DNA of 52,745 nt from Candidatus Woesearchaeota archaeon (GCA_016181275.1 JACOZQ010000024.1:661-53405), one strand, 5' to 3'. Positions 10,940 through 51,800 are shown, numbered from the stretch's first letter. The notes: generated from the letters alone by a model not told the origin. Numbers and translations: made by a program.

Positions 10940-10956
10940 GTTAAGGGGTAATTCCT

Positions 10957-12377: not shown

Positions 12378-12423
12378 TATTTTTAGGATTATATTTATAA
12401 AAGCATTGCAAACATAATTTTAC

Positions 12424-12891: not shown

Positions 12892-13631
12892 AATGAGGAT
12901 TTTTTTCTTATGTGCTGCAAACGCTTCAAGTCTATTTTAGCAGTGATCATTCCTTCTTTTCCAAATTTTTCTTTTAGAATTTTATGAGGCTCTGCTATTG
13001 CGGTATAAGATGTCAACCGGTTTTCATTCTTATCGATCGGGTTGCAGAAAACAACATAGGATAGGTTTTCATAAGCTCTTGCTAAAATCAAAGACTGCAA
13101 AATTTTCTTTTCAAATTTTTTATGATTTCTTTTGTGCAACCATTCATCATAACACCAGTACATCGGGCAGAAAATTATTTTTGCTCCTTTTTTAGCCATC
13201 CTATTTATTGCATTTGGATTTGAAATATCCCAGCAGATTGCAATTCCTATCTTGCAAAAAGGTGTGTTGTAAATATCAAATTTTGATCCGGGCATTACTG
13301 GACCGTCGCCGAGAACATGAACTTTCTTGTGCTTGCCGGATGTTTTCCCTTTATCGTCGATGATTACAGCTGATTTGTATGAGTATTTTTTTTCTTTTAA
13401 ATTGGCGGCGATTATGCACCATATTTTATAGAATTTGCAATATTCTTTTATTTTTGAGATGATTTCCTTGTTTTTCTTAGGACCCTCTGAAATAGATCCT
13501 TCAGGAAAGCAAATTATTTCCACTTTTCTTTTTTTTGCCTGTTGAATATATTTTTTAATATCATTAATTATAGAAGATACTGGTTTATTAATATTTAACT
13601 GAGCTGCTGCAATCTTAAAATTATTTTTCAT
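12888..13631 (-). CDS. Carbon-nitrogen hydrolase (nitrilase superfamily)
   Basis: The E-K-C triad contexts are present: ICFPEGS, GKHKKVHV, and IGIAICWD. Confidence 0.8.
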   Translation of the reverse strand: MKNNFKIAAAQLNINKPVSSIINDIKKYIQQAKKRKVEIICFPEGSISEGPKKNKEIISKIKEYCKFYKIWCIIAANLKEKKYSYKSAVIIDDKGKTSGKHKKVHVLGDGPVMPGSKFDIYNTPFCKIGIAICWDISNPNAINRMAKKGAKIIFCPMYWCYDEWLHKRNHKKFEKKILQSLILARAYENLSYVVFCNPIDKNENRLTSYTAIAEPHKILKEKFGKEGMITAKIDLKRLQHIRKKSSF

Positions 13632-13677
13632 AATTATAAGAAGGGATTTTTATTTATATAGATTTAGTTTTTAACGG

Positions 13678-20532: not shown

Positions 20533-21939
20533 TTATTGCCTGGCCTTCAAAGCTTCCACTGTCGGCAATTTTTCCTCGATCAAATACTTGAATAATGGAG
20601 CTGTATTCTTTGAAAGATAATTTATATTCTTCATCGGAATGTTGAACTGCTTGAAGCAATTCACCGTCGATTCTCCCAATACAAATGTAAATGCATTTGA
20701 TTTTCCTAGCTCTTCCAAAACAGCTTTTGTAGCTTCTCTAAAATTCTCATCCTCTATTTTTCCTAAAGGTCCTTTTATTATTATTGTTTTTGCTTTTCTA
20801 ATCAAAGACAAATAATTTTCCAGTGTTTGAGATCCTATTTCATTTAAATTTTGATAGATTGGCAGTCTCAACAAAGAAACCTGCTCAGCCATACCGAAAG
20901 TTGAGATCTTGTAATCTTCAGGAAGAATTATATTCTCATATCCAACTAATTTCTTTAAGTCTGAGTTTATTTTTATTTTTTCTTTTTTCAGCTCCTGCTC
21001 TTGAGCTCCAAGTTTATCTCCTTTCGCAAGATGAAGTAAATGAGATAGATAACCTGAAGTAAGAATTGTATTTGCTCTCTTTTTTTCTAATGAAACTTTT
21101 ATAAGATTTATAAGCTGCTCTGGTTTGTTCCCTCCCAAAATATACAAGCAAGGTTTTGCTGGATTCAACAAATGATTTGCAGCATCTATTTCTTTTTCAA
21201 AATATCTTCCAATACATGTCTGCATAATTTTAGGAAATCCTGTTAATGAAGTATAGGAGAAATGAGCTAATGAAAACGCATCATTAACATAATAATCTGC
21301 TAATGAAGAGAGTATTTTAACAAGGTTTGTTTTAGCCTGCTTTTTCTCTTTTATCTTTTCCTCCTTGTCAGCAAAAAGATTTTTTAAGATTATAACATCT
21401 CCAGATTTCATTGACTTTATTGCTTGCTGCGCTTGTTCCCCGATCAAGTCGTCAACATAAGTTATATTCTGGTTTAGTTTCTTTGACAAATACTCTGCAT
21501 GCATATTCATGAATGGAAATGATTTTTCTTTTGGCTGCTGAGATTGATGAGCTAAAACTACAACTCTTGCTTGCTTTTCTATCAGCTCTAATATTGTCGG
21601 CAGGTGATGTGAGAAATGCTCTGTTGGAATAAATTCTGGAGATAATTGGGAATCCAAATCCAATCTTAATAAAACAATTTTATCTTTGAGTTTGAAATCA
21701 TCTAAAGTCTTGAAATCTTTTATCTTGTATGCATATCCTGCAAAACTTTTCTCTTTAAGCCTAGTGGAATCCTGGATTACTTTTGATGCCGGCTCCTTTT
21801 TTACTTCTCCCCACTTAACCAATCTTCTTAATGAGGATTGAATTGACTTTAATGAGTTGCCTGTGGCTTTGGCTATCTCGTTGCTCAACAACCAAGAATT
21901 ACTTTTCTTTAATGCTTTTTTTACCTCTTCCTGCCCCAT
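20533..21939 (-). CDS. pgk: Phosphoglycerate kinase-like protein with an N-terminal winged-helix extension
   Basis: Residues ~75-468 are colinear with archaeal PGK (FKTLDDFKLKDKIVLLRLDLD, VVLAHQSQQP, ILGGNKPEQ, KGPLGKIEDENF). The first ~60 aa (LSNEIAKATGNSLKSIQSSLRRLVKWGEV) look like a wHTH. Confidence 0.7.
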   Translation of the reverse strand: MGQEEVKKALKKSNSWLLSNEIAKATGNSLKSIQSSLRRLVKWGEVKKEPASKVIQDSTRLKEKSFAGYAYKIKDFKTLDDFKLKDKIVLLRLDLDSQLSPEFIPTEHFSHHLPTILELIEKQARVVVLAHQSQQPKEKSFPFMNMHAEYLSKKLNQNITYVDDLIGEQAQQAIKSMKSGDVIILKNLFADKEEKIKEKKQAKTNLVKILSSLADYYVNDAFSLAHFSYTSLTGFPKIMQTCIGRYFEKEIDAANHLLNPAKPCLYILGGNKPEQLINLIKVSLEKKRANTILTSGYLSHLLHLAKGDKLGAQEQELKKEKIKINSDLKKLVGYENIILPEDYKISTFGMAEQVSLLRLPIYQNLNEIGSQTLENYLSLIRKAKTIIIKGPLGKIEDENFREATKAVLEELGKSNAFTFVLGESTVNCFKQFNIPMKNINYLSKNTAPLFKYLIEEKLPTVEALKARQ

Positions 21940-21975: not shown

Positions 21976-22614
21976 TTATTGTTCTGTTGAAATACTTTTT
22001 ATCTTATAATATTCAATTGCCTTGTACAAGCATTTCAAAGGATCCTTGTCGAATTTTTCCAGTTTGAAATTATCCCTTCCTGATAAGAGAATCTTTATCG
22101 CTTTCTCATCTTCCTTGACTATGCTGCGGGATTTTATTTTATCCAGATAAACAATTCTTTTAACTCCTGATTGGATTATGGACCTGACGCAAGCCAAGCA
22201 TGGAAATCCTGTAACATACAATGTAGAATTTTCTATATAAAACTGTTTGTTCAGAATTGCATTTTTTTCTGCATGCTCGATAAACAGATATTTTTCAGGA
22301 CGAGTTAATGGAATCAAATGGTCTTTAGAACCTCTAGGAAAACCATTATAGCCAATGCTTAAAACTTTATTATTTTCATCAACGATAACACAGCCATTTT
22401 TTTGAGATGGATCAATTGAGCGCATTGAAATCAATATTGCCATTGACATAAAATATTCATCCCATTTCGGCTTTTTCCAGTGCTCAAATAAGTCCTTGTT
22501 TAAATTATTAGAATGCGAAATATGCTCTTTAAATAAATAATTTAAATCATCAATATGAGATTCCAAATAAGTTTCATCCTTTTCAACATTCACCTTCTTT
22601 TTATCAGAATCCAT
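21976..22614 (-). CDS. dCMP deaminase (CMP/dCMP zinc deaminase family)
   Basis: HAEKNAI and PCLACVRSI zinc-ligand motifs are present, as is GYNGFPRG. There is a ~60-aa N-terminal extension. Confidence 0.8.
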   Translation of the reverse strand: MDSDKKKVNVEKDETYLESHIDDLNYLFKEHISHSNNLNKDLFEHWKKPKWDEYFMSMAILISMRSIDPSQKNGCVIVDENNKVLSIGYNGFPRGSKDHLIPLTRPEKYLFIEHAEKNAILNKQFYIENSTLYVTGFPCLACVRSIIQSGVKRIVYLDKIKSRSIVKEDEKAIKILLSGRDNFKLEKFDKDPLKCLYKAIEYYKIKSISTEQ

Positions 22615-32719: not shown

Positions 32720-32735
32720 ATTTAAAGTGATTAAA

Positions 32736-32954
32736 ATGCCAAATATGACTTTATCCGTTTCTTTGGAATTACATAAGGAAATGTTGCAACATTCTGAAAT
32801 ACGCTGGAGTGATATAGCTCGGCAAGCATTTGAAAAGAGAATAAAAGAATTAAATTGGATTGATGCTTTATTAGAAAAAAGTCAATTAACAGATGATGAT
32901 GCTGAAAGGATTGGGCATAAGATAAAGCATGAAATAAGAAAAAGGTTTTCTTAA
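32736..32954 (+). CDS. Putative antitoxin (VapB-like position)
   Basis: This small ORF ends where the PIN-like ORF starts (TAATG at 32952-32956). Alternative starts are at 32727 and 32745. Confidence 0.5.
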   Translation: MPNMTLSVSLELHKEMLQHSEIRWSDIARQAFEKRIKELNWIDALLEKSQLTDDDAERIGHKIKHEIRKRFS

Positions 32955-33355
32955 TGAGGCTAATCATCAACTCCAACAGGATTATAGCTGCATTGGTTAA
33001 GGATTCTACTTCTAAGAAAATCATCCTTGAAGGAAATTTAGAGCTTCTATCTATCAATGTTTCTGAAGATGATGTCAAAAGATACAAAAAAGAAATCTTA
33101 AAAAAATCCGAGCTTACTGAAGCCCAATTTGATTTTATTTATGAAAAACTTAAGGAAAAATTGATAATTCTTGATGACAAGATAATTATGAATAAAATGG
33201 AAGAAGCAAAAAGGATTATGGATAAGATAGATAAAGATGATACTCCTTTTATAGCAGCTGCGATTGCAACAAAATCTTCTATATGGTCAGATGACAAACA
33301 TTTCGAAAAACAAAACCGGATTAAAATTTTAAAGACAAATGATTTGATTAAATAG
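32954..33355 (+). CDS. PIN-domain-like protein
   Basis: The N-terminus LIINSNRIIAAL aligns by eye with the VLDTNVLISAL-type motif, but has Asn where the first catalytic Asp is expected. The C-terminus DDTPFIAAAIATKSSIWSDDKHF is typical of PIN domains. Confidence 0.55.
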   Translation: MRLIINSNRIIAALVKDSTSKKIILEGNLELLSINVSEDDVKRYKKEILKKSELTEAQFDFIYEKLKEKLIILDDKIIMNKMEEAKRIMDKIDKDDTPFIAAAIATKSSIWSDDKHFEKQNRIKILKTNDLIK

Positions 33356-34052
33356 GTCTAGCTCTGTTTGCTTCAGGCATATACTTCCTAACCTTAAATT
33401 CATCAACTGGTAATTCAGTGTTACCGTCTGGATTAAAATATGACTCAACAATAACCCCGTCTGAAACCATTAAATGTTCATAAACATTATCACGAGTTGA
33501 ACCTGCTCCTTCAATTAATGGAAAATCTCCAAGAAGAGTTTTATAGTGTTCTAATTTTTTTATTGGTGTTTCTTGGCCTATCCCTAACCCGGTTGCAACA
33601 ACGGCATCAACTCTTGATTTTGCTAACTCCAGCCATTCTTGTAAATTATCTCCAGGATTGGAAGTGTATTTAAATCCAACTCCCCCTAAGACAACAGTAT
33701 TGAGGTATAATCCCCTAAATCTATCATAAACATTTAAATCTATATCTTGAAGCTGGACAGAATCTATCTGGATAAAATCCGCATTATAATCTCCAGCTAA
33801 TTCAAATGAGCGTTTAAAATTTCCTAGAAAATTTATACCTAGTTTTAGTTTTGCATCTCTTGATTGGATTTGACTTAGAACTGAAATTAATGTCTGCTCT
33901 GTTCCATCATAATTTTCTATAATAACTCCATCCAAGCCTTCCTGCTCATAAATTTTTAAATCTTGCAAAGCTTGATCGATCGGGTATCTTCCCCTTAAAT
34001 GAAGCATGCCAATTACTGGCTTTCTTGGAAATAATTTATGAAATAATGACAT
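33348..34052 (-). CDS. BtpA/SgcQ-family TIM-barrel protein
   Basis: The N-terminus KPVIGMLHLRGRYP and the overall pattern resemble the BtpA family. Confidence 0.6.
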   Translation of the reverse strand: MSLFHKLFPRKPVIGMLHLRGRYPIDQALQDLKIYEQEGLDGVIIENYDGTEQTLISVLSQIQSRDAKLKLGINFLGNFKRSFELAGDYNADFIQIDSVQLQDIDLNVYDRFRGLYLNTVVLGGVGFKYTSNPGDNLQEWLELAKSRVDAVVATGLGIGQETPIKKLEHYKTLLGDFPLIEGAGSTRDNVYEHLMVSDGVIVESYFNPDGNTELPVDEFKVRKYMPEANRARPI

Positions 34053-34577: not shown

Positions 34578-36059
34578 ATGAAATTCGAACCTGTTTATTA
34601 TGCGGATAAAACAAGACCTGTTGATTTTAGCAATCCTACTTTTAGTAAAGATTTTCCATTAACAATTATTAATCCAGAAGGATATTCCGGAATTGTTACC
34701 TTGTGGACAAAACCATGGGATGTATGGGATGAGCTCCTTGAGAGATTTCCCAGACTGTTCCAAAAAGATTCACCCTTAGTAACATTAACGAGCTTGTATG
34801 GAAACGGCCTTCCTCAAATGCTGGCTAATCTTGCTTATAATCCTCAATTAGAATATCTCGCAATTACTGGGAATGATGGGAATGCTGTTCCGAGCTCAAA
34901 ATATCTGCTGAACTTTTTAGAACAGGGAGTTGAAATCGGAGATCCATTGGGAACAATCAGAGGAACTACTTTTCCAATCGACCTAAAATTAAAACCCGAA
35001 CTGTTCAAGCATTTAAAAGTTGAAAAATTTAAACCTGGTGACTTAGAATCTGTTGTAAACTTTGTCACAAGAGAAAAAACTTATAATCTAAGAGAATCTG
35101 ACAGAGTAAAAATTGAATTAATTCAGCCAGAATTTTCTGATTATCCTTCTGATATTACTCTGCATCAGATAAATGAAGAAACTCCAATAGATGCGTGGAT
35201 GGAAATTATTTTTAGATTAAACAGATTTGGAAAAAATATTCAGCTTCAGAAAGGTATTAGAAGAACATTATTTAATCTTGATGTTCATGTCAAAAATTCT
35301 GAAGTCGAAGACAGAGAAAAACTTAGAAAATTTAATTTCGACCTTGATGAGTTAAATGCCTATAGAAAAGATATGCTAAAAGGAGAACTGTCTGAAGGAA
35401 CAACTTATACTTATGGAAACAGGATGAGAAAATACTTCGGTATTGATGCATTGGAAAAAGTTATTGAGAGATTTAAAAAAGATCCTGCTGATAGGAGAGG
35501 ATTCCTTACATTATGGGATGTAAAAGAGGATATAACTTCTTCTTCGTCTTCTGATTCTTCTGTTCCCTGCCTGACTGATTTGTATTTTGTAAACCTTGAA
35601 GGAAAATTGATGCTGACTGCTAACTTCAGGACACATAATGCCACTTCTGCCTGGATGCTAAACTTTTATGGGTTAAGAGCAATACAAGAATATGTTGCAA
35701 AAGAAACAGGGATTGGAATTGGAAAAATAAATGTTAAAAGCAGATGGATTGGAATTGATCCCGATGATGCAAAAACGAATTCTGCAATTGACTTAGTTGA
35801 GAAAAACAGGAGAAAAAGAATAAACGTTAATGATCCTAACGGTTATTTAGTAATTGATGTAAGAGGAAATAAAATAGAAGCAGACCATTATTCTTCTGAA
35901 GGAGCTAAATTAACAACTTATTCTGGAGAAACAGCAAGAGAAATCAAAGATCAATTAAGACAGGATTCTGCATTCTTTAGTTTTGACCATGGAGAATGGA
36001 TTGGGTATGAATTAGCAAGAGCACATCATAAACTGCATGGCGAGCTGCCTGAACTTTGA
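34578..36059 (+). CDS. Fusion of an MtrA/DUF4346-like N-terminal domain with a divergent thymidylate-synthase (ThyA)-like C-terminal domain
   Basis: The N-terminal half is colinear with the MtrA-like pattern (IVTLWT...TSLYGNGLPQMLANLAYNPQLEYLAITGND...LLNFLEQGVE...TIRGTTFPI). The C-terminal half has DRRGFLTLWD, the catalytic-Cys context VPCLTDLYF, EGKLMLTANFRTHNA and WMLNFYGL. Confidence 0.6.
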   Translation: MKFEPVYYADKTRPVDFSNPTFSKDFPLTIINPEGYSGIVTLWTKPWDVWDELLERFPRLFQKDSPLVTLTSLYGNGLPQMLANLAYNPQLEYLAITGNDGNAVPSSKYLLNFLEQGVEIGDPLGTIRGTTFPIDLKLKPELFKHLKVEKFKPGDLESVVNFVTREKTYNLRESDRVKIELIQPEFSDYPSDITLHQINEETPIDAWMEIIFRLNRFGKNIQLQKGIRRTLFNLDVHVKNSEVEDREKLRKFNFDLDELNAYRKDMLKGELSEGTTYTYGNRMRKYFGIDALEKVIERFKKDPADRRGFLTLWDVKEDITSSSSSDSSVPCLTDLYFVNLEGKLMLTANFRTHNATSAWMLNFYGLRAIQEYVAKETGIGIGKINVKSRWIGIDPDDAKTNSAIDLVEKNRRKRINVNDPNGYLVIDVRGNKIEADHYSSEGAKLTTYSGETAREIKDQLRQDSAFFSFDHGEWIGYELARAHHKLHGELPEL

Positions 36060-36120
36060 ACTTTAAATTATATTTTCAAGAAGATTAATATTTATATAAA
36101 AGTAAAAGTTTTCTTTCTTA

Positions 36121-36768
36121 ATGTTAGAGGGTGTGATTGCTGTTGGTTTTGACTTGGATGGTACTTTATACAAATCTACTCCTGAGATGAATGACAGGAT
36201 TAGAAATAAAATTGCTGAAAGAATTCTTGAAAAAAAACCAGAACTTAAATCCGCTGAGAGAGCAAGAGAATTCTTTGAAGAAAGATATAAAGAATTTCGA
36301 TCAGGAAACAGAGTTCTTGCTGATGTTGGGTATGAAAATTCCCGCAAAATTATGGATGACTGCATTATTAATACTGACGTTATTGATTTGATTTCCGCAG
36401 ATCCTGAATTGGCAAGAATAATGCATGCAATCAGAGATAAGTATGATTTTATTTATTTAATTACCAGCTCGCCTGAAAAATCAGCAAATGAAAAATTATG
36501 TAAAATTGGGATCTCTCCCAAAATTTTTAATGATTTTATGTTTGGAGATGAGGGGTTAAACAAAGATGATGGAAGCGCGTTTAAAGAGATGATTCGTTGC
36601 ATGCCTTACGTAAAGCCTTACAGGCATATTTATGTTGGGGATAAATTGAGCTCAGATATTCTTCCAGCTAAAAAAATAGGAATGAGAACTGCTGCTGTAT
36701 GGTTTCCTATCCCTGAAGCAGATTATTCTTTAAATCATATTCATGATATTGGGGGTTTGCTGCTATGA
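36121..36768 (+). CDS. HAD-superfamily hydrolase
   Basis: Motif I is FDLDGTLY, motif II is LITSSP, and motifs III/IV are K...YVGDKLSSDI. Confidence 0.8.
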   Translation: MLEGVIAVGFDLDGTLYKSTPEMNDRIRNKIAERILEKKPELKSAERAREFFEERYKEFRSGNRVLADVGYENSRKIMDDCIINTDVIDLISADPELARIMHAIRDKYDFIYLITSSPEKSANEKLCKIGISPKIFNDFMFGDEGLNKDDGSAFKEMIRCMPYVKPYRHIYVGDKLSSDILPAKKIGMRTAAVWFPIPEADYSLNHIHDIGGLLL

Positions 36769-37544
36769 CAGATGAAAGTGTTAGAAGAATTGAGATATTA
36801 AAAGAAATTCCTTTTGATGGTGAAGGTGATACATTAGTAAATAGATTAAGAAAAATAACATTAAGGGGTTTCCCCGACATAAAAATATATGAAAATGCAA
36901 AGTTTGAAATGGTAAAATATGGTCCTAAAGATATATTAAGTAAACTACATACGCCACAATTAAGGGTTTACAGAGATCATCTAAACAGAATTGGTGTTTT
37001 AGCTGCACTATTTTTAAGAGAAGGGATTGATATCACCAATCTTGATAGGGGTTATGACTTCATTGCAACTTCTGAATCTGGAAAAGAAACTGAATGGACA
37101 ATGATGCCTCCTGTAATTGAAAGATTTTCTATCCCAAAAACAGAAGATGGAAGATTTGATTATGAAAATAATGAAATATCTGCAGATATACTGAAAGAAG
37201 CATTAAGAAAAGAAGGATTGTGGTTTAATCCTGATGCTCTTGCTCACAGGCATACAACAAGCGGCATTTATGATCTGATTAATGACGGATCACATAGAGT
37301 TCATTATGGATATGAAAAAGGTGGAATTACCGTTTTAAGAATTAGCAATATAACTCCTGGATTTCCTTATTATGCAATACCACAAAAATATAATATTAGG
37401 GTATTTTCAACAAGAGAGGAAGCATTAAACATTCCAGAAACAAAGATTCATGTTGTCCAGGAACCAGCTCATAAAAATTTATATCGCTTATTTCCATCGG
37501 GCGGAATCAAATCAGGTGATGTTAGACTCACAAAAAGTAAATAG
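36765..37544 (+). CDS. Hypothetical protein with a ParB/Srx-like DGxHR motif
   Basis: It overlaps the HAD gene through ATGA. LINDGSHRVHYGY and an upstream HTPQLRVYRDHLNRIG resemble the ParB/sulfiredoxin fold signature. The assignment is weak. Confidence 0.4.
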   Translation: MTDESVRRIEILKEIPFDGEGDTLVNRLRKITLRGFPDIKIYENAKFEMVKYGPKDILSKLHTPQLRVYRDHLNRIGVLAALFLREGIDITNLDRGYDFIATSESGKETEWTMMPPVIERFSIPKTEDGRFDYENNEISADILKEALRKEGLWFNPDALAHRHTTSGIYDLINDGSHRVHYGYEKGGITVLRISNITPGFPYYAIPQKYNIRVFSTREEALNIPETKIHVVQEPAHKNLYRLFPSGGIKSGDVRLTKSK

Positions 37545-37633
37545 ATTATATAATATATACTTTACAGTTTCATATTATTTATATATTATCCTGATTTTCA
37601 AATATCAAGATATTGTTGTTATCAATTAAAAGA

Positions 37634-37651
37634 TATACAACATATTGTATA
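37634..37651. promoter_or_regulatory. Candidate NrdR-box-like inverted repeat TATACAA-CATA-TTGTATA
   Basis: 7-bp perfect arms lie 4 nt upstream of the nrdR ATG. The sequence is similar in character to the A/T-rich 16-bp palindromic NrdR box. A second palindrome, AATATCAAGATATT, is at 37601-37614. Confidence 0.4.
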
Positions 37652-37654
37652 GGA

Positions 37655-38104
37655 ATGAAATGCCCTTATTGTGGTGATATGGAAAGCAAGGTCGTTGACA
37701 AGAGAAACAGCAGGCTTGACACTACAAGAAGAAGGCGTGAGTGCTTGAAATGCGGGAAGAGATTCACAACTTACGAAAAAATACATCAGGTTGAGCTTAA
37801 TGTTATTAAAAGAAACGGCAATCTTGAGCTGTTTAATAAAGAAAAAATAAGAACTGGCATGGTAAGGGCATGTGAAAAAAGACCTGTTACAATTGAGCAG
37901 ATAAATAGCATTGTTAACAAGATTGAAAGTGACCTGAGAAAATTCAAGACAACTGAAATTAAAAGCGAGCAGATAGGAAAAAAAGTTATAAATGCCTTAA
38001 AAAAGCTTGATAATGTAGCATATCTAAGATTTGCTTCTGTTTACAGGAGCTTTGATGATATTAAAGACTTTGAAAAGGAGATAAGAGAAATAAAAGTAAG
38101 GTGA
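37655..38104 (+). CDS. nrdR: Transcriptional repressor NrdR
   Basis: The zinc ribbon MKCPYCG...RRRRECLKCGKRFTTYE is followed by an ATP-cone. ATG 37655 is preferred over the upstream alternative start at 37613. Confidence 0.9.
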   Translation: MKCPYCGDMESKVVDKRNSRLDTTRRRRECLKCGKRFTTYEKIHQVELNVIKRNGNLELFNKEKIRTGMVRACEKRPVTIEQINSIVNKIESDLRKFKTTEIKSEQIGKKVINALKKLDNVAYLRFASVYRSFDDIKDFEKEIREIKVR

Positions 38105-38130
38105 AATTTAATGAATAAAGAGGTGGTATC

Positions 38131-40998
38131 TTGCCAGAATTAATGGTTGTGAAAAGAACAGGCGATCTTGTTAATTTTGATAAGAACAGGATTGAGAGTG
38201 CCATACAAAAAGCAGTGACTGCAGTTGGCAATGGTGTTTCTGAAGGACAGGTAGGAAACGTTGTTAATGATATTTGCGACGAGATTCGCGACAGGTTTAT
38301 TGATTTCTATCCCAATGTTGAAAACATACAGGACATTGTTGAAAAGCACCTTGTAAAATCCGGCATGTATGAAGTTGCCAAAGCTTACATACTGTACAGA
38401 GCTGAGAGGCAGAAAGATAGAGAAAAAAGAAAAGAGCTCGACATTGAAAAAGCAAAAATTGGGAGATTGACAATTAAAAAGAGAGATGGAAGAACTGCAA
38501 TCTTTGACATTAAAAAAATAAGAAATAGTATATTAAGAGCTGCTAAAGGCTATGAAAACGACATTGATGTGGACTTGCTTTTGAAAGAAACTGTCAAGGG
38601 GATTTATGACAGCATTGATACAATTGGAATTGAGAAATCATTAATTCTCGGAGCGGTTTCATTTATTGAAAGAGATCCTGCTTATGGCTTTGTTGCAAGC
38701 AGATTATTCATGCAGAAATTAAGGAAAGAAGTTATTGGAGTTTCTATCTATAATGATAATTTAGAAACTGCTTATCGAGAAGCTTTTATTCGCGGCATTA
38801 AGAAAGGAGTTGAGAATGAGCTGCTGGATAGAAGAATGCTGGAATATGATCTTGGAAAATTAGCAGGTGCTTTAAAAATCGAGAGGGATGAATTAATACA
38901 ATATACAGGAATTCAAACTTTGTATGAAAGATACTTCATAAAATTAAATAATGGGCGGAGAATTGAGTTGCTGCAAAGTTTTTGGATGAGAGTTGCAATG
39001 GGGCTTGCTCTTATTGAAAATAAAAAAGAGGAGAAAGCATTGGAATTTTATGAGCTAATTTCAAGCTTTAGATATATCCCATCAACTCCAACTTTATTTA
39101 ATGCCGGGACAAATCATGCTCAGCTCAGCTCATGCTATCTGACGACGGTTTTAGATGATTTAGATCATATATTCAAGTGCATCCGCGACAATGCTCATCT
39201 TTCTAAATGGGCCGGTGGCATTGGAAATGACTGGAGCAATATTCGAGCTACAAATGCATTGATTAAAAGCACTCAAGCTGAAAGCCAGGGAGTTATTCCA
39301 TTTTTGAAAATAGCTAATGATGTAACTGCAGCAATATCACGAACAGGAAAAAGAAGAGGCGGAACCTGCGCTTATCTTGAAACATGGCACCTCGATATTG
39401 AAGAATTTCTTGATTTGAGAAAAAATACAGGAGATGAAAGAAGAAGGACACATGACATGAATACTGCTAATTGGATTCCTGATCTTTTTATGAAAAGAGT
39501 TTTAGAAAATAAAAATTGGACTTTATTCTCTCCTGAAGAAGTTCCTGATCTGCATCATCTTTATGGAAAAAGGTTTGAAGAAAGATATGAGCATTATGAA
39601 AATCTTGCAAAACAGGGAAGATTTAGAATGTATAAAACTATTGAAGCTAAAAAATTATGGAAAAAAATGCTGAGCATGATATTTGAAACAGGGCATCCAT
39701 GGATTACATTTAAGGACCCGTGCAATATTCGCAGCCCACAAGATCATACTGGCGTGATTCATAGCTCAAATTTATGCACTGAGATAACTTTAAACACTTC
39801 TGAAGAAGAGAATGCTGTATGTAATTTGGGAAGCATAAATCTTCCAATGCACATCATCAACGGAAAATTAGATGAGGAATTAATTTCCAGAACTGTTCGA
39901 GCTGCTGTAAGAATGCTTGATAACGTTATTGACCTAAATTTTTATCCCACAAAGGAAGCTGAGAATTCAAATAAAAGACACAGGCCTGTCGGGCTTGGAA
40001 TAATGGGATTACAAGATGCTTTGTTTATGCTAAACTTCAGCTTTGATTCTAAAGAATCTCTTGAATTTTCAGATTTTTCCATGGAGATGATTTCCTATTA
40101 TTCTATTTTAACTTCTTCTGAGCTGGCAAAAGAAAAAGGAAAATATCAAAGCTATGAAGGAAGCAAGTGGAGCAAAGGAATTTTCCCAATTAATACAATC
40201 AAACTTCTTGAAGAGCAAAGAGGAATGGAAATTGATATTGACAGAGATGAAAAACTAAATTGGAATATTGTAAGAGAGCATGTGAAAGAAAATGGAATGA
40301 GAAATTCAAATGTAATGGCAATTGCTCCAACTGCAAGCATATCAACAATAGTCAATTGCTATCCATGCATTGAACCAATTTATAAAAATATTTATGTAAA
40401 AGCAAATATAAGCGGAGAATTTACTGTAGTTAATTCTTATCTCATTGATGATCTGAAAAAAATCGGGATGTGGAACAGGGAAATGCTTGATCAGCTCAAA
40501 TACTATGATGGAAATGTTTCTTTGATCACTGGAATTCCTGAAAACATTAAAAATAAATATAAAGAAGCATTCGATGTCGATCCATTTGCAATGATTGACA
40601 TGACTGCAGCCCGAGCAAAATGGATAGACCAAAGCCAGAGCTATAATATATTTGTCAAAGGAACATCTGGAAAGTTGCTTAATGATATTTATTTCTATGC
40701 CTGGAAGAAAGGACTGAAAACAACATATTATCTCAGAACTTTAGCTGCCAGCCAAATAGAAAAATCAACACTTGACACAAAATATGGATTCACGCAAAAA
40801 AGAGAATATAACCTTGTAAACGAGGAGAGAAATAGCAATGAAAAACAAAAAACAATTGTTCCAGACACTCCTAAAGACAACCTGTTGAAAAAATATTCTA
40901 TTAATTCTGAAAAAGAATTTGCAGAAGATAATAAAAACGATGAGAAAGAAATAAAGCTTTGCTTGATAGAAAATCCTGATTGCGAAGCATGCCAGTGA
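38131..40998 (+). CDS. nrdA: Ribonucleotide reductase large subunit (class I NrdA) with two N-terminal ATP-cones
   Basis: ATP-cone starts are VVKRTGDLVNFDKNRI and IKKRDGRTAIFDIKKI. Also present are SSCYL, NLCTEI, VCNLGSINL, PTASIS and TTYYLRT. The C-terminal redox pair is CEAC. The start is either TTG 38131 (after AGGTGG) or ATG 38143. Confidence 0.9.
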   Translation: MPELMVVKRTGDLVNFDKNRIESAIQKAVTAVGNGVSEGQVGNVVNDICDEIRDRFIDFYPNVENIQDIVEKHLVKSGMYEVAKAYILYRAERQKDREKRKELDIEKAKIGRLTIKKRDGRTAIFDIKKIRNSILRAAKGYENDIDVDLLLKETVKGIYDSIDTIGIEKSLILGAVSFIERDPAYGFVASRLFMQKLRKEVIGVSIYNDNLETAYREAFIRGIKKGVENELLDRRMLEYDLGKLAGALKIERDELIQYTGIQTLYERYFIKLNNGRRIELLQSFWMRVAMGLALIENKKEEKALEFYELISSFRYIPSTPTLFNAGTNHAQLSSCYLTTVLDDLDHIFKCIRDNAHLSKWAGGIGNDWSNIRATNALIKSTQAESQGVIPFLKIANDVTAAISRTGKRRGGTCAYLETWHLDIEEFLDLRKNTGDERRRTHDMNTANWIPDLFMKRVLENKNWTLFSPEEVPDLHHLYGKRFEERYEHYENLAKQGRFRMYKTIEAKKLWKKMLSMIFETGHPWITFKDPCNIRSPQDHTGVIHSSNLCTEITLNTSEEENAVCNLGSINLPMHIINGKLDEELISRTVRAAVRMLDNVIDLNFYPTKEAENSNKRHRPVGLGIMGLQDALFMLNFSFDSKESLEFSDFSMEMISYYSILTSSELAKEKGKYQSYEGSKWSKGIFPINTIKLLEEQRGMEIDIDRDEKLNWNIVREHVKENGMRNSNVMAIAPTASISTIVNCYPCIEPIYKNIYVKANISGEFTVVNSYLIDDLKKIGMWNREMLDQLKYYDGNVSLITGIPENIKNKYKEAFDVDPFAMIDMTAARAKWIDQSQSYNIFVKGTSGKLLNDIYFYAWKKGLKTTYYLRTLAASQIEKSTLDTKYGFTQKREYNLVNEERNSNEKQKTIVPDTPKDNLLKKYSINSEKEFAEDNKNDEKEIKLCLIENPDCEACQ

Positions 40999-41036
40999 TA
41001 ATAAAACAATTGAGATGATAAAACAAGGGAGATAAA

Positions 41037-42029
41037 ATGCCGATAATAAATAATTCAAAGACAGACCCAAATAAAATTTTGCCTATGACATATTTATGGG
41101 CCAGGAAACATTACAAAGACGGAGTAAATAATAACTGGACACCTGAAGAGATAAGCATGCAGAAAGATGTTGAGCAATGGAAATCTGCTAAATTAAGCAA
41201 TGATGAACGAAGGCTGATACTTTGGAATTTAGGATTTTTTTCCACAGCTGAATCCTTAACAGCTAATAATATTGTGCTTGCTATTTATAGGCATGTCACA
41301 AATCCTGAATGCAGGCAATATTTATTGAGACAGGGTTATGAAGAAGCAATACATACAGATACATTTATTTACTGCTGCGATACTCTAGGCCTAGATCCTG
41401 ATGATATCTATAACATGTACAAGACAATTCCCAGCATTCGCGAGAAGGATAATTTTGTAGTTGAGCTGACTGAAAGCATCTTTGATCCAAATTTTTCAAC
41501 AAACGGAATCGAAAACATCCGCAAATTTTTGCACGATTTAATTGGGTATTATGTCATCATGGAAGGAATATTTTTCTATGCAGGATTTGCAATGATGCTT
41601 GCCATGAAAAGACAAAACAAAATGATTGGTGTCGGTGAGCAATTCGAATACATAATGAGGGATGAAAGCCTGCATCTGGCTTTTGGCTGCGACCTGATAA
41701 ATACAATTAAAGATGAGAATCCTGAAATATGGGACGAAGAATTCAGAAAAGAAATTCTTGAGCTGATTAAGAAGGCAGTTGACTTTGAAAAAAAATATGC
41801 TTATGATGCCTGTCCCCGTGGCTTGCTGGGAATAAAGGCTGAAACATTCTGCGAATATGTGGAGTATATAACTGACAGAAGGCTTGAAAGAATCGGCCTG
41901 CCAAAATTATTCCATATTGAAAATCCTTTTCCCTGGATGTCCCAGTCTGTTGACTTGTCAAAAGAGAAAAACTTTTTTGAGACAAGAGTTACTGAATATC
42001 AAAGCGCTGGAGCTTTGCAATGGGATTAG
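41037..42029 (+). CDS. nrdB: Ribonucleotide reductase small subunit with a class Ic-type signature
   Basis: Metal-ligand contexts are STAES (E72), EEAIH (E103, H106), MEGIFF and RDESLH. Residue 110 (TTT at 41364-41366), four residues after H106, is Phe where class Ia proteins have the radical Tyr. Confidence 0.85.
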   Translation: MPIINNSKTDPNKILPMTYLWARKHYKDGVNNNWTPEEISMQKDVEQWKSAKLSNDERRLILWNLGFFSTAESLTANNIVLAIYRHVTNPECRQYLLRQGYEEAIHTDTFIYCCDTLGLDPDDIYNMYKTIPSIREKDNFVVELTESIFDPNFSTNGIENIRKFLHDLIGYYVIMEGIFFYAGFAMMLAMKRQNKMIGVGEQFEYIMRDESLHLAFGCDLINTIKDENPEIWDEEFRKEILELIKKAVDFEKKYAYDACPRGLLGIKAETFCEYVEYITDRRLERIGLPKLFHIENPFPWMSQSVDLSKEKNFFETRVTEYQSAGALQWD

Positions 42030-48883: not shown

Positions 48884-51800
48884 TTATGCCGGCTGCTTCA
48901 TTCTCATAACTATATTATCGACTGCAAATTGCCTTCCATTAGGATCAAGTGAAAAAGTAAGCCTCTCTGCGGCATCTAATTTCCAGCCAGCTGTTTTTAA
49001 ATTATTCAATGGGATGCTCACAAGCCTCCATTCATCGTCGACAACGCCACCATCAATATAATCTTTAATGTTTACAACATTGCTTCCATAATTCCAAGTA
49101 GTTATCTTAAAAGTCCAGTCATCTTTTCCGTGGTCTCCATTGTTCCTGAAATAAAACTCGATTTTTTCAAAGGGAGAAAGATTTCTTCTTCCCTCATTTC
49201 CACAGTATAAATTATAGCTTGGAGCATTCCATCTTCCAGGTTTTCCCAATAATGCTTTGCCTCCGCCATATCCAATCGTCTCTTCTCCCCAGCATTTGCT
49301 TCCCAAAATAGGAACAGAATTTTCCTCTCCGTCGTATAATATTAAATCTCCTGCATTAAGTCTCGGCAATTCAGGCAAATCTCCAGAGGTTTTGATTCCA
49401 AAATTAATAACTGTATCAGATCCTAATGAAGCTCCAAATAAGTCGACTGGATAAACTCTCAAGGTATGATAGCCATGAGGGATATTTTCAAAAGTATATG
49501 ACCCATCATCAGATCTTACTTGAAGATAATTATCCAGCTGCATTATCACTCCGGAATAATCCTCATTGTCTTCATTTACTTGATAATTAACTGCAAATGA
49601 ATTTGTATTTAATACATCTCCATTTTTAAGAGATAAAATACTAATGCCGGAATTATCTACTTCAAAATTTAACGGCTCTGCCAGTCCATTAAATACTCCA
49701 TACAAAGGAATTGCTGTTACAGGTGTATTATTGTCGAAATTAGAATACAATCTATAATCTCTTCCTGATAAATCATAATTTGTTGCTGTTACTTCTGCTC
49801 CTTCTGCAATCGGTATTTTAAATAGAATATTGATTTGATTGCTCGCGAAGTCTACATTGTTTAATTTCAAATCATCATTTAATCCTTCTCTGTATTCTAC
49901 CACTAAGTTTTGATAATTGCTCAAATATGTATTTTCAATTGTTCCGCCTTTTGGGGGGTTGCTGTATCCTGTTTCAAAATTAACTATTCTCCCACCTAAA
50001 ATGTTTACTGCAAGATTTGCTCCATTATTAATTCTATAACCCAATCCCTTTCCGCCTCCGACAAAATTAGGATTTTCAATTGTTAAATTTCCTGAAACAT
50101 GCTCTGTATTTACCCCATGCGAATTATATCCATAATGCATTAGCTTAAAGTTTTTAATTAAATCACTATTTGAATAAGACAATCTTAATCCGTTTGGTGA
50201 AATTATTTCTGCTATATTATTTTCAAATGCTCCATATTTTTGTACAGGTATTCCGATTTGAATATATTTTCCTTTTATTTCTCCAGGAATTCCATCAATA
50301 TAAGGCACAATCCCTTTTACAAAACTTGGATGCCTATAGTATGCATAACCTGCTATGTTAAAGTAACCAGCAGCAAGATTATTTTTTACCTGCAATAAAG
50401 GACCTCTAAACCAATAGCCAAATCCTCCTGCACCCATATCCTCTCCATTCAGCCTGTTAAATCTCCCAGTGTCATCAACTCCAGAGCCGCCGCCGAGACC
50501 TAAAACAAAATTTTTCTCTACAATGCCCGTTTCTACTCCATCCTCTGCAAAAATTCCAGAGCCACCAGCTCCAATAATTGTATTTCCAATTATATCGCCA
50601 TAGCTGTCGTGATTTACAATTCCAAATCTTGGAGATGTTACAATAGAATTTCCTTCAAACAAGAATTTCTCATGAGCATGATGCACGTGCAATGCATACC
50701 TTGCTCTCTGATTTTTTCCAATGCTTAAAATATTTCCAGCCTCGTCGTATTTTGTGTCTTCTCTTTCAGCTACAAGCGTCCTTCCCATACCCTCAATCCT
50801 GGCGTTTTTCACAATTGCTTTTACATGTCCAGCGAGTAATATTTGACCTCTTCTCTTAATGTCATCAAAAGCTAAATTTTTATTCTGGTCAAAATCATCT
50901 TTAATCATGACATTGTCTCCATCTGATTTAAGAATAATATTTCTTGCTGGATTTACCACATAACCATCATGTTCATATTGTAAAGATTTATCTAAAATGA
51001 TCTGATTTCCCGATATATTTAATATTGTTGCAATCTCATGCTTAGGATCATGATCCATATTGTATGCAAAAGCAGTTCCTCTTGTCGTATCTTCAACATA
51101 TAATTTATTTCCAGCTCTCCAGCCGGTTGAATTTTCAACAAAGATTACATTTGAACCATTGACTGTTTTTTGCAATAATTTTGTCCATGGAATTTGTGCT
51201 TGAGCTCCCTCAATATTTACTTTACCGCCATCAGTCATTAATCCTAGATTAAATTGCCCGGGATCTTCATCCAGGTCAACTTCCCCTAAAAAAATTATTT
51301 CAGTATCAATAAATGGATTGTCATTTTTAATCTCAAATTCCCCGGTTTTATACACATGAATTGTCCCTACTGTTAACTTTGTATCTATTGTATTATCAAA
51401 ACTTAATTTTCCTTTTAGTACAACTGCTCTAAATTTATCATCTGAAATATCATCATAAACAACTTCTGCCCCTTCTGATATTAACACAACATCATTCTCA
51501 TCCAAAACATTATCCTCAAATATTTCCGACCATGTATATTTTAAGGATTCATTATCTATCCCTTCAAAAAATGTTTCCAATGGATAATCTGAATTTTCCC
51601 TTACTGTACTGCTAATAACAACATCATCAATATCACCATCAAAATTTCCTAGTGCTAAACCCCAATCACTATTTCTTCCATAGTTTGGAGGGGCTTTTTG
51701 AGATCCCAATAAAACATCATCAACATAAAAGCTTACATTTTCATTTTCATCAAAGGTAATTCTTAATTGATGCCATTGGTTGCTTGCTACACTATCATTC

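What the first reader, a model, noticed from the sequence alone, without database searches (positions are those of the whole stretch)
34578..37544. MtrA/DUF4346-like::ThyA-like fusion followed by HAD phosphatase and a ParB/Srx-like protein: a possible non-canonical pyrimidine C1-modification module
**Seen.** The first gene fuses an N-terminal domain colinear with the corrinoid/pterin-associated MtrA-like fold to a ThyA-like domain.
- The ThyA-like domain keeps the RR pair, the catalytic PC context, GKL, and the Asn of the LNF segment.
- It diverges at the QRSxD-type motif (FRTHNA) and at the C-terminal His/Tyr region.
- The fusion gene is followed after 61 nt by a HAD hydrolase.
- Overlapping that gene (ATGA) is a 259-aa protein with a DGSHR motif.

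**Established knowledge.** ThyA homologues include dUMP and dCMP hydroxymethylases that feed DNA base hypermodification. The ParB/Srx fold includes phosphotransferases such as sulfiredoxin, and to my recollection an archaeal ADP-dependent serine kinase. DUF4346 is reported together with pterin-binding domains.

**Inference.** The trio may simply be a thymidylate synthase adapted to an unusual C1 carrier. Alternatively it may be a methylase or hydroxymethylase plus kinase-like plus phosphatase pathway that makes a modified pyrimidine nucleotide. A dCMP deaminase (21976-22614) and the RNR operon are nearby.
Basis: partly seen in the sequence, partly recalled or inferred. Interest (0 to 1): 0.65.

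Follow-up and report, generated by a model that had tools for sequence, protein, structure and literature searches.

The report
Non-canonical thymidylate-synthase-like gene cassette
A small archaeon carries a conserved three-gene set, built around an unusual thymidylate-synthase-like enzyme that has lost the residue normally holding folate, which probably makes the DNA base thymine (or a relative of it) by chemistry nobody has yet tested.

Summary
One correction: the first protein has three domains, MtrA-like (N), mini-ThyA (middle) and DUF4346 (C-terminal, not N-terminal).

The trio is not a chance neighbourhood. The order ThyA-like / HAD / ParB-like recurs in about 20 DPANN loci and, rearranged, in Armatimonadota, Thermodesulfobacteriota, Magnetococcales, Thiomargarita and Actinobacteria. 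A cytosine deaminase usually accompanies it. Gene fusions exist (ThyA-like::HAD and ParB-like::dCMP deaminase).

In other DPANN the same HAD and ParB-like pair flanks stand-alone ThyA-like proteins, inside ribonucleotide-reductase clusters.

Both forms of the partner keep the catalytic Cys, the phosphate-binding Arg residues and the uracil-selecting Asn177. Both replace the folate-anchoring Asp169 by Asn. A 2026 paper reports that substitution as diagnostic of flavin-dependent 5-hydroxy-dCMP synthases in phages.

Best reading: a deoxycytidine-nucleotide to dUMP to C5-modified dUMP route, most likely dTMP, with non-canonical cofactor chemistry. A different C5 product (5-hydroxy or 5-hydroxymethyl) is not excluded. 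I could not test whether this is the genome's only thymidylate synthase. I found no description of the cassette in the searchable literature.

The parts
34578..36059 (+). Gene for the three-domain ThyA-superfamily enzyme (493 aa, called FUS here). The ORF opens at GTG 34572, but ATG 34578 is the likely start.
   Evidence: The AlphaFold2 model has pLDDT 92.5 and pTM 0.88.
34578..35162 (+). MtrA-like Rossmann-type N-domain. Invariant motifs are TLW, YGxG and NLxxNPQ. It lacks the MtrA cobalt ligand His84 and its partner Glu54.
   Evidence: A profile hits PDB MtrA 8q3v (E 2e-5) and 5laa, and Pfam-MtrA proteins P0470/P0471. The roles of His84 and Glu54 are from PMC4915002.
35181..35741 (+). Mini-ThyA domain related to the methanogen type. 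Catalytic Cys is at 35568-35570. Asn replaces Asp169 at 35637-35639. The Asn177 equivalent is at 35661-35663.
   Evidence: TIGR03283 gives E 4e-36 but 124 bits against a cut-off of 174.55. PF00303 passes its cut-off. The best fold match is 9iqu, the AfhB dCMP hydroxylase. The residue census is and the coordinates.
35832..36035 (+). C-terminal PterinBD-DUF4346 domain, with conserved D, G, H and H residues.
   Evidence: PF14251 gives E 7.5e-11 and 43.1 bits against a cut-off of 29.6. The same region matches the DUF4346 part of TIGR00284 and NF002128.
36121..36768 (+). HAD-superfamily phosphatase (215 aa). Motif I, FDLDGTLY, is at 36148-36171, and motif IV is YVGDKLSSD.
   Evidence: PF00702 gives E 2e-11. 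There are weak, below-cut-off matches to pyrimidine 5'-nucleotidase families. Synteny is, and fusion to FUS in L065.
36765..37544 (+). ParB/Srx-like 'ParB-CE' protein (259 aa). The NDGSHR motif is at 37281-37298.
   Evidence: PF24392 gives E 5e-11. The model has pLDDT 92.8 with no significant PDB or BFVD match.
21976..22614 (-). dCMP deaminase, the probable supplier of dUMP. In relatives this gene lies inside the cassette.
   Evidence: PF00383 gives E 1e-20. Deaminases are part of the operon in L003, L015, L019, L022, L024, L027, L034, L056, L064, L070, L090 and L101-L103.
37613..42029 (+). Context immediately downstream: NrdR (probable start near 37655), class I RNR large subunit (38131-40998) and small subunit (41037-42029).
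   Evidence: The cassette lies beside RNR genes in L100, L102 and L103, with an NrdD/NrdG pair about 4 kb away in L101. A FUS-like gene alone lies beside RNR genes in viral contigs L095 and L096.

Best explanation
The window carries one version of a conserved cassette with three parts:
- a ThyA-superfamily enzyme whose folate-anchoring Asp169 is replaced by Asn;
- a HAD phosphatase;
- a ParB/Srx-like protein ('ParB-CE').

A cytosine deaminase normally works with the cassette, and it sits among deoxynucleotide-synthesis genes.

**Proposed route (inferred)**
1. Deoxycytidine compounds are brought to the monophosphate level by ParB-CE and HAD. ParB-CE would be an NTP-binding phosphotransferase or (d)CTP/dUTP phosphohydrolase.
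2. They are deaminated to dUMP.
3. The ThyA-like enzyme attacks C6 of dUMP with Cys331 and installs a one-carbon unit at C5, most probably giving dTMP.

**How firm each step is**
- Shown by sequence: the nucleotide-binding and catalytic residues are kept, as is the uracil-selecting Asn.
- Shown by sequence: the cofactor side of the active site is rebuilt. Asp169 becomes Asn, His147 becomes Leu or Phe, Gln165 becomes Phe or Tyr, and His207 and Tyr209 are lost.
- Inferred: the second substrate or cofactor is not bound as in canonical folate-dependent ThyA. Candidates are a flavin, as in the phage Asn169 enzymes, or a cofactor presented by the equally conserved MtrA-like and DUF4346 domains.
- Inferred: the direction and substrates of the ParB-CE and HAD steps.
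For: **1. Synteny well beyond chance**
- FUS-HAD-ParB-CE occurs in 14 or more DPANN loci.
- Deaminase-HAD-ParB-CE-FUS occurs in 10 or more Armatimonadota-type loci.
- Variants carry a dCTP deaminase (PF22769, E 9e-47) or a cytidine deaminase.
- Of 52 loci with at least 2.5 kb on both sides, 29 have ParB-CE within 3 kb of FUS.

**2. Gene fusions**
- FUS::HAD in L065.
- ParB-CE::dCMP deaminase in P0210/L090.

**3. The same pair with a different partner**
- HAD and ParB-CE flank stand-alone ThyA-like proteins of 319-384 aa in five further DPANN loci.
- Four of these lie by RNR genes. L103 reads NrdD-Grx-NrdG-ThyA-like-HAD-ParB-CE-dCMP deaminase-Trx on one strand.
- L104 shares its S10 and SerRS flanks with FUS loci, so the two forms are positional equivalents.
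- All five carry Asn169 and Asn177.

**4. Residue census of 102 FUS proteins**
- Cys146, Arg166, Asn177 and Tyr94 are each 100% conserved.
- Arg21 is 99% and Arg126 is 97%.
- Position 169 is Asn in 91%, Ser in 5% and Asp in 3%.

**5. Comparison with folate users.** Folate-using relatives keep Asp169 and the HxY motif. RB69 gp48, shown experimentally to be a flavin-dependent 5-hydroxy-dCMP synthase, has Asn169 (PMC13326640).

**6. Structure.** The best structural match of the model is the flavin-dependent ThyA-fold hydroxylase AfhB, 9iqu (E 3.6e-12, TM 0.80 normalised to the target).

**7. Viral contigs.** FUS-like genes follow NrdA/NrdB directly, the usual position of a thymidylate synthase.

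**8. Anaerobic hosts.** The cassette occurs beside the oxygen-sensitive class III RNR (L103; about 4 kb from NrdD/NrdG in L101), and FUS itself is found in strict anaerobes such as Desulfofundulus and Desulfacinum. This argues against an O2-dependent hydroxylase as the general function (the physiology is my own knowledge).
Against: - There is no biochemical evidence of any kind.
- Asn169 has so far been linked experimentally only to hydroxylation, not methylation (PMC13326640).
- A 5'-nucleotidase-like HAD, sometimes fused to the synthase, is odd in a route whose product should be kept as dTMP.
- The family is patchy: 221 relatives among the 185,579 species genomes scanned. In Actinobacteria the pair follows a giant AAA_16/WD40 STAND-type protein next to a relaxase, which looks accessory rather than housekeeping.
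- About 20 Desulfobaccales-type loci have FUS with no ParB-CE or HAD within 10 kb.
- I could not check whether any carrier genome lacks thyA and thyX.
- The viral three-domain subgroup keeps Asp169 and HxY, so the extra domains and the Asn169 change are separable.
Confidence: 0.5

Rival explanations
1. The cassette makes a different C5-modified pyrimidine. The Asn169 enzyme would hydroxylate (with a flavin) or hydroxymethylate dUMP. ParB-CE would phosphorylate the product or its new hydroxyl group, and HAD would remove a phosphate. The result would be a modified nucleotide or nucleoside for DNA or RNA modification, signalling or antagonism.
For: - Asn169 is reported as diagnostic of flavin-dependent 5-hydroxy-dCMP synthases, and nine of nine tested Asn169 enzymes made 5-hydroxy-dC (PMC13326640).
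- The best fold match is AfhB.
- Position 143 holds a small residue in 87% of family members rather than the bulky hydrophobic one linked to methyl products (the rule is from PMC13326640).
- A kinase-like protein plus a phosphatase fits processing of a modified nucleotide.
- The HAD is fused to the synthase in L065.
- The window organism has an O2-requiring class I RNR and MsrB, so oxygen is available to it.
Against: - Asn177 is invariant, whereas the hydroxylases have Asp177 and act on dCMP.
- No glycosyltransferase or other modification gene is conserved nearby.
- Carriers include strict anaerobes and loci with class III RNR.
- The cassette sits in housekeeping dNTP clusters of very small genomes.
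- ParB-CE is absent from the phage records, viral contigs, PHROGs and PADLOC.
Confidence: 0.25
2. The first gene encodes an ordinary methylene-tetrahydrofolate (or methylene-H4MPT) thymidylate synthase with decorative extra domains. The HAD and ParB-like genes are unrelated neighbours.
For: - Databases name family members 'thymidylate synthase'.
- PF00303 passes its cut-off.
- DUF4346 also occurs on pterin-related enzymes (TIGR00284, NF002128).
- Many Desulfobaccales loci have FUS alone.
- The viral three-domain subgroup keeps Asp169 and HxY.
Against: - Synteny holds across two domains of life, and there are two kinds of gene fusion.
- Scores fall below every NCBIfam thymidylate-synthase equivalog cut-off, while a control methanogen-type enzyme passes.
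- Asp169, His147, Gln165, His207 and Tyr209 are systematically replaced.
- To my recollection, substitutions of this Asp other than Cys abolish the folate-dependent reaction in canonical enzymes. I did not check this here.
Confidence: 0.1
3. The cassette is a nucleotide-pool-manipulating conflict or defence effector. It would drain dCTP through dCMP and dUMP to a nucleoside, or make a toxic analogue, when triggered.
For: - In Krasilnikovia and one metagenomic locus, FUS and ParB-CE follow a 1,700-aa AAA_16/WD40 STAND-type protein. The Krasilnikovia locus is next to a TrwC relaxase.
- The ParB-CE::dCMP deaminase fusion resembles, in layout, known dCTP-depleting defence enzymes. That comparison is my own knowledge and was not tested.
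- The taxonomic distribution is patchy.
Against: - There is no PADLOC hit.
- In DPANN the cassette lies within RNR/NrdR/thioredoxin clusters and between ribosomal and tRNA-synthetase genes, with no sensor gene.
- Nothing in the window suggests a mobile element around it.
Confidence: 0.1

Closest known systems
Methanogen-type thymidylate synthase (NCBIfam TIGR03283, MJ0757-like)
   Same: It is the best-scoring family for the ThyA-like domain (E 4e-36). Both have a short core without the E58 'ELLWFL' helix and keep Cys146, Arg166, Asn177 and Tyr94.
   Different: The window protein scores 124 bits against a cut-off of 174.55. The methanogen-type control (PhiF1 ORF59) scores 187 bits and keeps Asp169 and the HIY motif. 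The window protein has Asn169, no HxY motif, and two extra domains.
Flavin-dependent 5-hydroxy-dCMP synthases of phages (AfhB of HY126, PDB 9iqu/9iqc; RB69 gp48)
   Same: Both have the ThyA fold with Asn in place of Asp169. AfhB is the best structural match of the model (PMC13326640).
   Different: The phage enzymes have Asp177 and act on dCMP, an acidic residue at position 143, a single domain, and need O2. The window family has an invariant Asn177, small residues at 143, and occurs in anaerobes.
MtrA, corrinoid-binding subunit of methyl-H4MPT:coenzyme M methyltransferase (PF04208; PDB 5laa, 8q3v)
   Same: There is detectable sequence homology over about 100 residues. Gly57, Asn64 and the Asn-Pro motif of the helix lining the cobalamin-tail pocket are conserved.
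   Different: The cobalt ligand His84 lies in a loop that is absent here, and Glu54 is Tyr. There is no GAIPF/YxEN segment and no membrane helix. The Pfam MtrA model does not hit the window protein, although it does hit the sister subfamily P0470.
ParB/Srx superfamily enzymes (sulfiredoxin; free serine kinases SerK and SbnI; ParB CTPases)
   Same: The protein has a D-G-x-H-R motif after a beta strand, and many conserved basic residues. Its only (weak) structural neighbours include Noc, sulfiredoxin, PadC and SbnI.
   Different: No fold match is significant (best E 0.34). There is no sulfiredoxin Cys (Ser, Met or Asn instead), no DNA-binding helix-turn-helix, and the family is small (275 representatives at E 0.001 or better among 1.84 billion proteins).
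Phage pyrimidine-precursor gene sets (for example HAD / ThyA-like / dCMP deaminase / DHFR in Xanthomonas phage DoCa5; T4 dCTPase, dCMP deaminase and Td)
   Same: They combine a cytosine deaminase, a ThyA-family enzyme and a HAD or other nucleotide phosphohydrolase, next to RNR genes. The T4 comparison is my own knowledge.
   Different: The phage ThyA-like enzymes keep Asp169. No phage or viral contig examined carries ParB-CE.

Membership tests
Canonical thymidylate synthase ThyA (EC 2.1.1.45) | Catalytic Cys146 in a Pro-Cys context | tested here: met
   VPCLT at 35562-35576. Cys is 100% conserved in 102 family members.
Canonical thymidylate synthase ThyA (EC 2.1.1.45) | dUMP phosphate-binding Arg21, Arg126' and Arg166, general base Tyr94, and uracil-selecting Asn177 | tested here: met
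   Conservation is 99%, 97%, 100%, 100% and 100% respectively. Arg127' is variable.
Canonical thymidylate synthase ThyA (EC 2.1.1.45) | Asp169, which hydrogen-bonds the pterin ring of methylene-tetrahydrofolate | tested here: not met
   Position 169 is Asn in 91%, Ser in 5% and Asp in 3%. The alignment has no gaps from Cys146 to Asn177.
Canonical thymidylate synthase ThyA (EC 2.1.1.45) | His207 and Tyr209 (deoxyribose 3'-OH contacts) and the Glu58 helix | tested here: not met
   These positions hold Gly/Ser/Thr and Asp/Asn, and no ELLWFL-type segment is present.
Canonical thymidylate synthase ThyA (EC 2.1.1.45) | Score above the curated family cut-offs | tested here: inconclusive
   Pfam PF00303 scores 30.6 against 24.3 and passes. 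Every NCBIfam equivalog fails: TIGR03283 at 124 against 174.55, and TIGR03284 at 18.6 against 108.35.
Canonical thymidylate synthase ThyA (EC 2.1.1.45) | Converts dUMP and methylene-tetrahydrofolate to dTMP and dihydrofolate | not testable with these tools
   This needs an enzyme assay or thyA complementation.
Flavin-dependent 5-hydroxy-dCMP synthase (AfhB / RB69 gp48 type) | Asn at the Asp169 position | tested here: met
   FRTHNA in the window protein against MRSQNC in RB69 gp48. The rule is from PMC13326640.
Flavin-dependent 5-hydroxy-dCMP synthase (AfhB / RB69 gp48 type) | Asp at position 177 (cytosine substrate) and an acidic residue at position 143 | tested here: not met
   Asn177 is invariant. 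Position 143 is Ser, Gly or Ala in 87%.
Flavin-dependent 5-hydroxy-dCMP synthase (AfhB / RB69 gp48 type) | Bound flavin and O2-dependent hydroxylation | not testable with these tools
   Only fold similarity is available: 9iqu, E 3.6e-12.
MtrA (PF04208) | Sequence and fold homology to the Rossmann-type MtrA domain | tested here: met
   8q3v at E 2e-5 and 5laa at E 6e-4. P0470 and P0471 at E 9e-10 and 8e-8.
MtrA (PF04208) | Cobalt ligand His84 with Glu54, and the GAIPF/YxEN segment | tested here: not met
   His84 falls in an MtrA-specific insertion relative to the family profile, and the Glu54 position is an invariant Tyr.
MtrA (PF04208) | Binds a corrinoid | not testable with these tools
   The tail-pocket residues Gly57 and Asn64 are conserved, so some ligand is likely, but its identity is unknown.
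PterinBD-DUF4346 (PF14251) | Score above the Pfam gathering cut-off | tested here: met
   43.1 bits against 29.6, at residues 421-488 of the ORF.
HAD-superfamily phosphatase | Motif I DxDGT, motif IV GDxxxD, and the Pfam cut-off | tested here: met
   FDLDGTLY and YVGDKLSSD are present. PF00702 scores 44.9 bits against 26.4.
HAD-superfamily phosphatase | Membership of a defined pyrimidine 5'-nucleotidase equivalog | tested here: not met
   TIGR01993 scores 42.4 against 142.9, and TIGR02254 scores 31.5 against 159.9.
ParB/Srx superfamily | Pfam ParB-CE model and the DGxxR-type motif | tested here: met
   PF24392 scores 43.2 bits against 23. NDGSHR is conserved in 53 of 54 archaeal and bacterial members.
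ParB/Srx superfamily | Structural match to solved ParB/Srx domains | tested here: inconclusive
   Noc, Srx, PadC and SbnI appear only at E values above 2, although the model has pLDDT 92.8.
Sulfiredoxin | Catalytic Cys in the GCHR motif | tested here: not met
   The position holds Ser in the window protein, and Met or Asn in relatives.

The most novel reading that the evidence does not exclude
The Asn169 ThyA-like enzymes, in both their stand-alone and MtrA/DUF4346-fused forms, may be a third mechanistic class of thymidylate synthase. They would keep the ThyA fold and its Cys nucleophile but use a flavin or another non-folate cofactor. They would work with a new family of ParB/Srx-fold pyrimidine-nucleotide phosphotransferases or (d)CTPases. 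This would explain how folate-poor DPANN archaea, and some anaerobic bacteria, make dTMP.
Probability: 0.25. Interest if true: 0.9.

Novelty: new variant of a known kind. Interest (0 to 1): 0.68.

Why it matters
- **Enzymology.** Thymidylate synthesis is known in two forms, ThyA and ThyX. An enzyme with the ThyA fold that has given up its folate anchor, yet sits where the thymidylate synthase belongs in dNTP operons, points in one of two directions. It could be a new cofactor solution for an essential reaction. It could be a cellular counterpart of the recently found phage pyrimidine hydroxylases.
- **Open question made testable.** Either outcome makes the question of how reduced-genome archaea supply thymine directly testable.
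- **New functional contexts.** It gives a first functional context to three unassigned families or domains: PF24392 ('ParB CE'), DUF4346, and the His-less MtrA-like domain.
- **Annotation.** It warns that the Asn169 'diagnostic' from the phage work cannot be applied without also looking at position 177.

Tried and rejected
1. **Corrinoid binding in the MtrA manner.** Set aside as the default. His84 and Glu54 are not conserved. Base-off or His-off binding cannot be excluded.
2. **NrdR control of the cassette.** No NrdR-box-like site lies upstream of 34578. The only box-like palindrome is at 37635-37650, before nrdR, and the total count is no more than chance.
3. **Phage or plasmid origin.**
   - Only the ThyA core matches phage records.
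   - ParB-CE has no match in the phage records, viral contigs, PHROGs or PADLOC.
   - The plasmid collection was not searched.
4. **Identifying ParB-CE by structure.** A confident model gave no significant PDB or BFVD match. A sequence profile found nothing in the PDB.
5. **Literature.** 'DUF4346', 'ParB-CE', 'MtrA-like with thymidylate synthase' and 'Calcineurin-CE with ParB' turned up no relevant paper. The origin of the Pfam name is unknown to me.
6. **Other architectures with the N-domain.** The profile search returned mostly gene fragments and frameshifted copies, plus the MtrA-positive sister subfamily.
8. **Whether the fusion is the only thymidylate synthase.** This could not be tested. 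No canonical ThyA and no ThyX motif lies within 10 kb in 85 loci.
9. **Sulfiredoxin-like repair of the catalytic Cys.** Rejected, because the Srx Cys is absent.

Full report
**The window.** It is low in G+C (about 32%). It encodes archaeal RNase P Rpr2, SMC, RNase HII, PGK, an intein-bearing Lhr helicase, NrdR and a class I RNR. The closest relatives of the genes studied come from Woesearchaeota, Pacearchaeota and Nanoarchaeota MAGs. The window is essentially one DPANN contig (longest contig 53,405 bp).

**Observation**
- The three ORFs exist as described, with a 61-nt spacer and an ATGA overlap.
- ATG 34578 is the probable start of the first gene.
- Pfam and NCBIfam place a methanogen-type ThyA core at residues 204-390 and DUF4346 at 421-488. 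No model covers residues 1-200.
- A profile of 36 homologues hits solved MtrA structures over about 100 residues of the N-domain (8q3v, E 2e-5).
- The N-domain profile hits Pfam-MtrA proteins at E 9e-10 in 5.8 billion sequences. One of these, P0470, is itself fused to a ThyA-like domain.
- The domain order is therefore MtrA-like / ThyA-like / DUF4346.
- The AlphaFold2 model is confident and compact (pLDDT 92.5, pTM 0.88).

**Active site**
- From Cys146 to Asn177 (E. coli numbering) the alignment has no gaps.
- In 102 family members Cys146, Arg166, Asn177 and Tyr94 are invariant, and Arg21 and Arg126 nearly so.
- Asp169 is Asn (91%) or Ser (5%). His147 is Leu or Phe. Gln165 is Phe or Tyr. Cys168 is His. 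Position 143 is small. His207 and Tyr209 are Gly/Ser/Thr and Asp/Asn.
- Folate-type relatives keep Asp169 and HxY. These include a methanogen-type ThyA, three phage ThyA-family enzymes (one of them annotated as a dUMP hydroxymethyltransferase) and E. coli ThyA.
- RB69 gp48 is experimentally a flavin-dependent 5-hydroxy-dCMP synthase. It has Asn169 but Asp177.
- PMC13326640 proposes Asn169 as diagnostic of such hydroxylases.
- The best fold match of the model is the HY126 hydroxylase AfhB (9iqu). The TM-score normalised to the query is the same (0.36-0.37) for AfhB, MilA and one varicella zoster virus thymidylate-synthase chain, so the fold alone does not discriminate.

**MtrA-like and DUF4346 domains**
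- Both are as conserved as the catalytic core, so they are functional.
- The cobalt ligand His84 and Glu54 of MtrA (PMC4915002) are missing. Gly57, Asn64 and the Asn-Pro motif that line the nucleotide-tail pocket are invariant.
- DUF4346 also ends the MJ0301-type dihydropteroate-synthase-like family and a long MtrA family.

**Synteny**
- A scan of one genome per species found 221 relatives. I examined 80 loci, plus others fetched by protein.
- I used my own ORF clustering and HMMs. The main arrangements were:
  - DPANN loci read FUS-HAD-ParB-CE.
  - Armatimonadota-type loci read dCMP deaminase-HAD-ParB-CE-FUS.
  - Some loci replace the deaminase by a dCTP deaminase or a cytidine deaminase.
  - Desulfobacca and several other bacterial loci have FUS next to ParB-CE only.
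  - About 20 Desulfobaccales-type loci have FUS alone.
- Of 52 loci with enough flanking sequence, 29 have ParB-CE within 3 kb of FUS.
- Fusions occur: FUS::HAD (L065) and ParB-CE::dCMP deaminase (P0210, in the order FUS-HAD-ParB-CE::deaminase-thioredoxin).
- P0069 is a tandem duplication whose second ThyA copy lacks the Cys.
- In Krasilnikovia and one metagenomic locus the pair follows a giant AAA_16/WD40 protein.

**The decisive extension**
- I looked up ParB-CE proteins whose contigs did not match any FUS contig. These came from six further loci.
- Five showed the same HAD and ParB-CE pair beside stand-alone ThyA-like proteins of 319-384 aa. Four of those lie by RNR genes.
  - L102 reads NrdR-RNR-ThyA-like-ParB-CE-HAD, with a dCMP deaminase and thioredoxin close by.
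  - L103 reads NrdD-Grx-NrdG-ThyA-like-HAD-ParB-CE-dCMP deaminase-Trx.
  - L100 and L101 have NT5C or a Dcd/dUTPase-like gene and an RNR nearby.
- L104 shares its S10 and SerRS flanks with the FUS loci L001 and L006.
- All five partners carry Asn169 and Asn177. All score best, but below cut-off, to TIGR03283.
- The HAD and ParB-CE pair is therefore tied to Asn169-type ThyA enzymes rather than to the fusion. The fusion and the stand-alone form are positional equivalents.
- One of the six sampled loci (L099) had ParB-CE without a ThyA-like gene within 5 kb.

**Viruses**
- Seven IMG/VR contigs carry FUS-like genes, none with ParB-CE or HAD.
- In L095 the gene follows NrdA and NrdB. One viral subgroup keeps Asp169 and HxY while retaining all three domains.

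**ParB-CE**
- The family is small (275 representatives).
- Residues conserved across archaeal and bacterial members are PPxxE, NDGxHR, PYYAxP, KKxH and KxLYRxF, plus a C-terminal Arg.
- The model has pLDDT 92.8 but no significant structural neighbour. Weak hits repeatedly include ParB/Srx members.

**Interpretation**
- The cassette is a unit of pyrimidine deoxynucleotide metabolism.
- The simplest pathway that uses every part has three steps: bring deoxycytidine compounds to the monophosphate level (ParB-CE, HAD), deaminate them to dUMP, and modify C5 (ThyA-like).
- Three observations favour dTMP as the product. The cassette sits in dNTP clusters. It occurs next to oxygen-sensitive RNRs, and FUS is present in strict anaerobes. 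A viral FUS-like gene occupies the position after NrdAB.
- The rebuilt cofactor pocket says the chemistry is not canonical.
- A different product cannot be excluded, and in Actinobacteria the pair may serve a conflict system.

Noticed in passing
window 22746-26927 (+): A 1,393-aa Lhr-type helicase (DEAD, Helicase_C, WH_Lhr, DEAD_assoc). It is interrupted by an intein with a LAGLIDADG homing-endonuclease domain, at about residues 347-867.
   Followed up: no
window 37613-38104 (+), with a palindrome at 37635-37650: A bacterial-type NrdR repressor (TIGR00244, 179 bits) in an archaeal contig. An NrdR-box-like palindrome, ATACAACATATTGTAT, lies just before its probable ATG near 37655. The ORF as listed starts about 14 codons too early.
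   Followed up: partly
window 38131-42029 (+): A class I (O2-dependent) RNR whose large subunit has two matched ATP-cone stretches. MsrB at 172-558 adds to the picture of an oxygen-exposed DPANN. Relatives with the same cassette use class III or class II RNR instead.
   Followed up: partly
L004 (Krasilnikovia) 2678-13745; P0069 locus: FUS and ParB-CE directly follow a giant WD40 protein of about 1,750 aa (AAA_16 plus WD40 in the P0069 locus). In L004 a 944-aa protein with a C-terminal ParB-CE domain comes next, then a HAD gene and a TrwC relaxase. This looks like a conflict or mobile-element context.
   Followed up: partly
P0069 (802 aa): A tandem duplication in which a second ThyA-like/DUF4346 unit follows the complete first protein. 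The second ThyA copy has lost the catalytic Cys (PPPRL in place of VPCL), which suggests a covalent pseudo-dimer.
   Followed up: partly
L095, L097, L098 (IMG/VR contigs): A divergent viral subgroup of the three-domain enzyme that keeps Asp169 and the AHIY motif (FRSNDM...AHIY). In L095 it lies directly after NrdA and NrdB, with a family-B DNA polymerase about 3.7 kb further downstream.
   Followed up: partly
L099 5001-5786: A ParB-CE gene with no ThyA-like gene within 5 kb. Its neighbours are NUDIX, PNPOx-like and histidine-phosphatase genes, Fpg and DNA polymerase I, so the context is probably bacterial.
   Followed up: no
P0470, P0471: A sister subfamily whose N-domain passes the Pfam MtrA cut-off (43 bits against 25). 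In P0470 it is fused to a ThyA-like domain. This links true MtrA to the window's N-domain.
   Followed up: partly
window 32727-33355 (+): A 75-aa ORF immediately precedes, and overlaps by one base, a PIN_2-domain protein. This is probably a VapBC-like toxin-antitoxin pair, just upstream of a BtpA-family gene at 33348-34052.
   Followed up: no
window 6035-8752 (+) and 48884-52438 (-): Two very large putative surface proteins. One has dockerin, Big_9 and He_PIG domains. The other has G8, Laminin_G_3 and a CEMIP beta-helix. Both are typical of DPANN cell-surface repertoires.
   Followed up: no
window 20533-21939 (-): A phosphoglycerate kinase with an extra N-terminal stretch of about 78 residues before the PGK domain. 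This is either a mis-called start or an extension.
   Followed up: no
L087 (Xanthomonas phage DoCa5) and L088 (Pseudanabaena phage Pam3): Phage ThyA-like genes sit beside a HAD hydrolase, a dCMP deaminase and DHFR (DoCa5), or beside aGPT-Pplase, Nmad5 and a 5'-deoxynucleotidase (Pam3). These are known analogues of a synthase, deaminase and phosphatase grouping.
   Followed up: no
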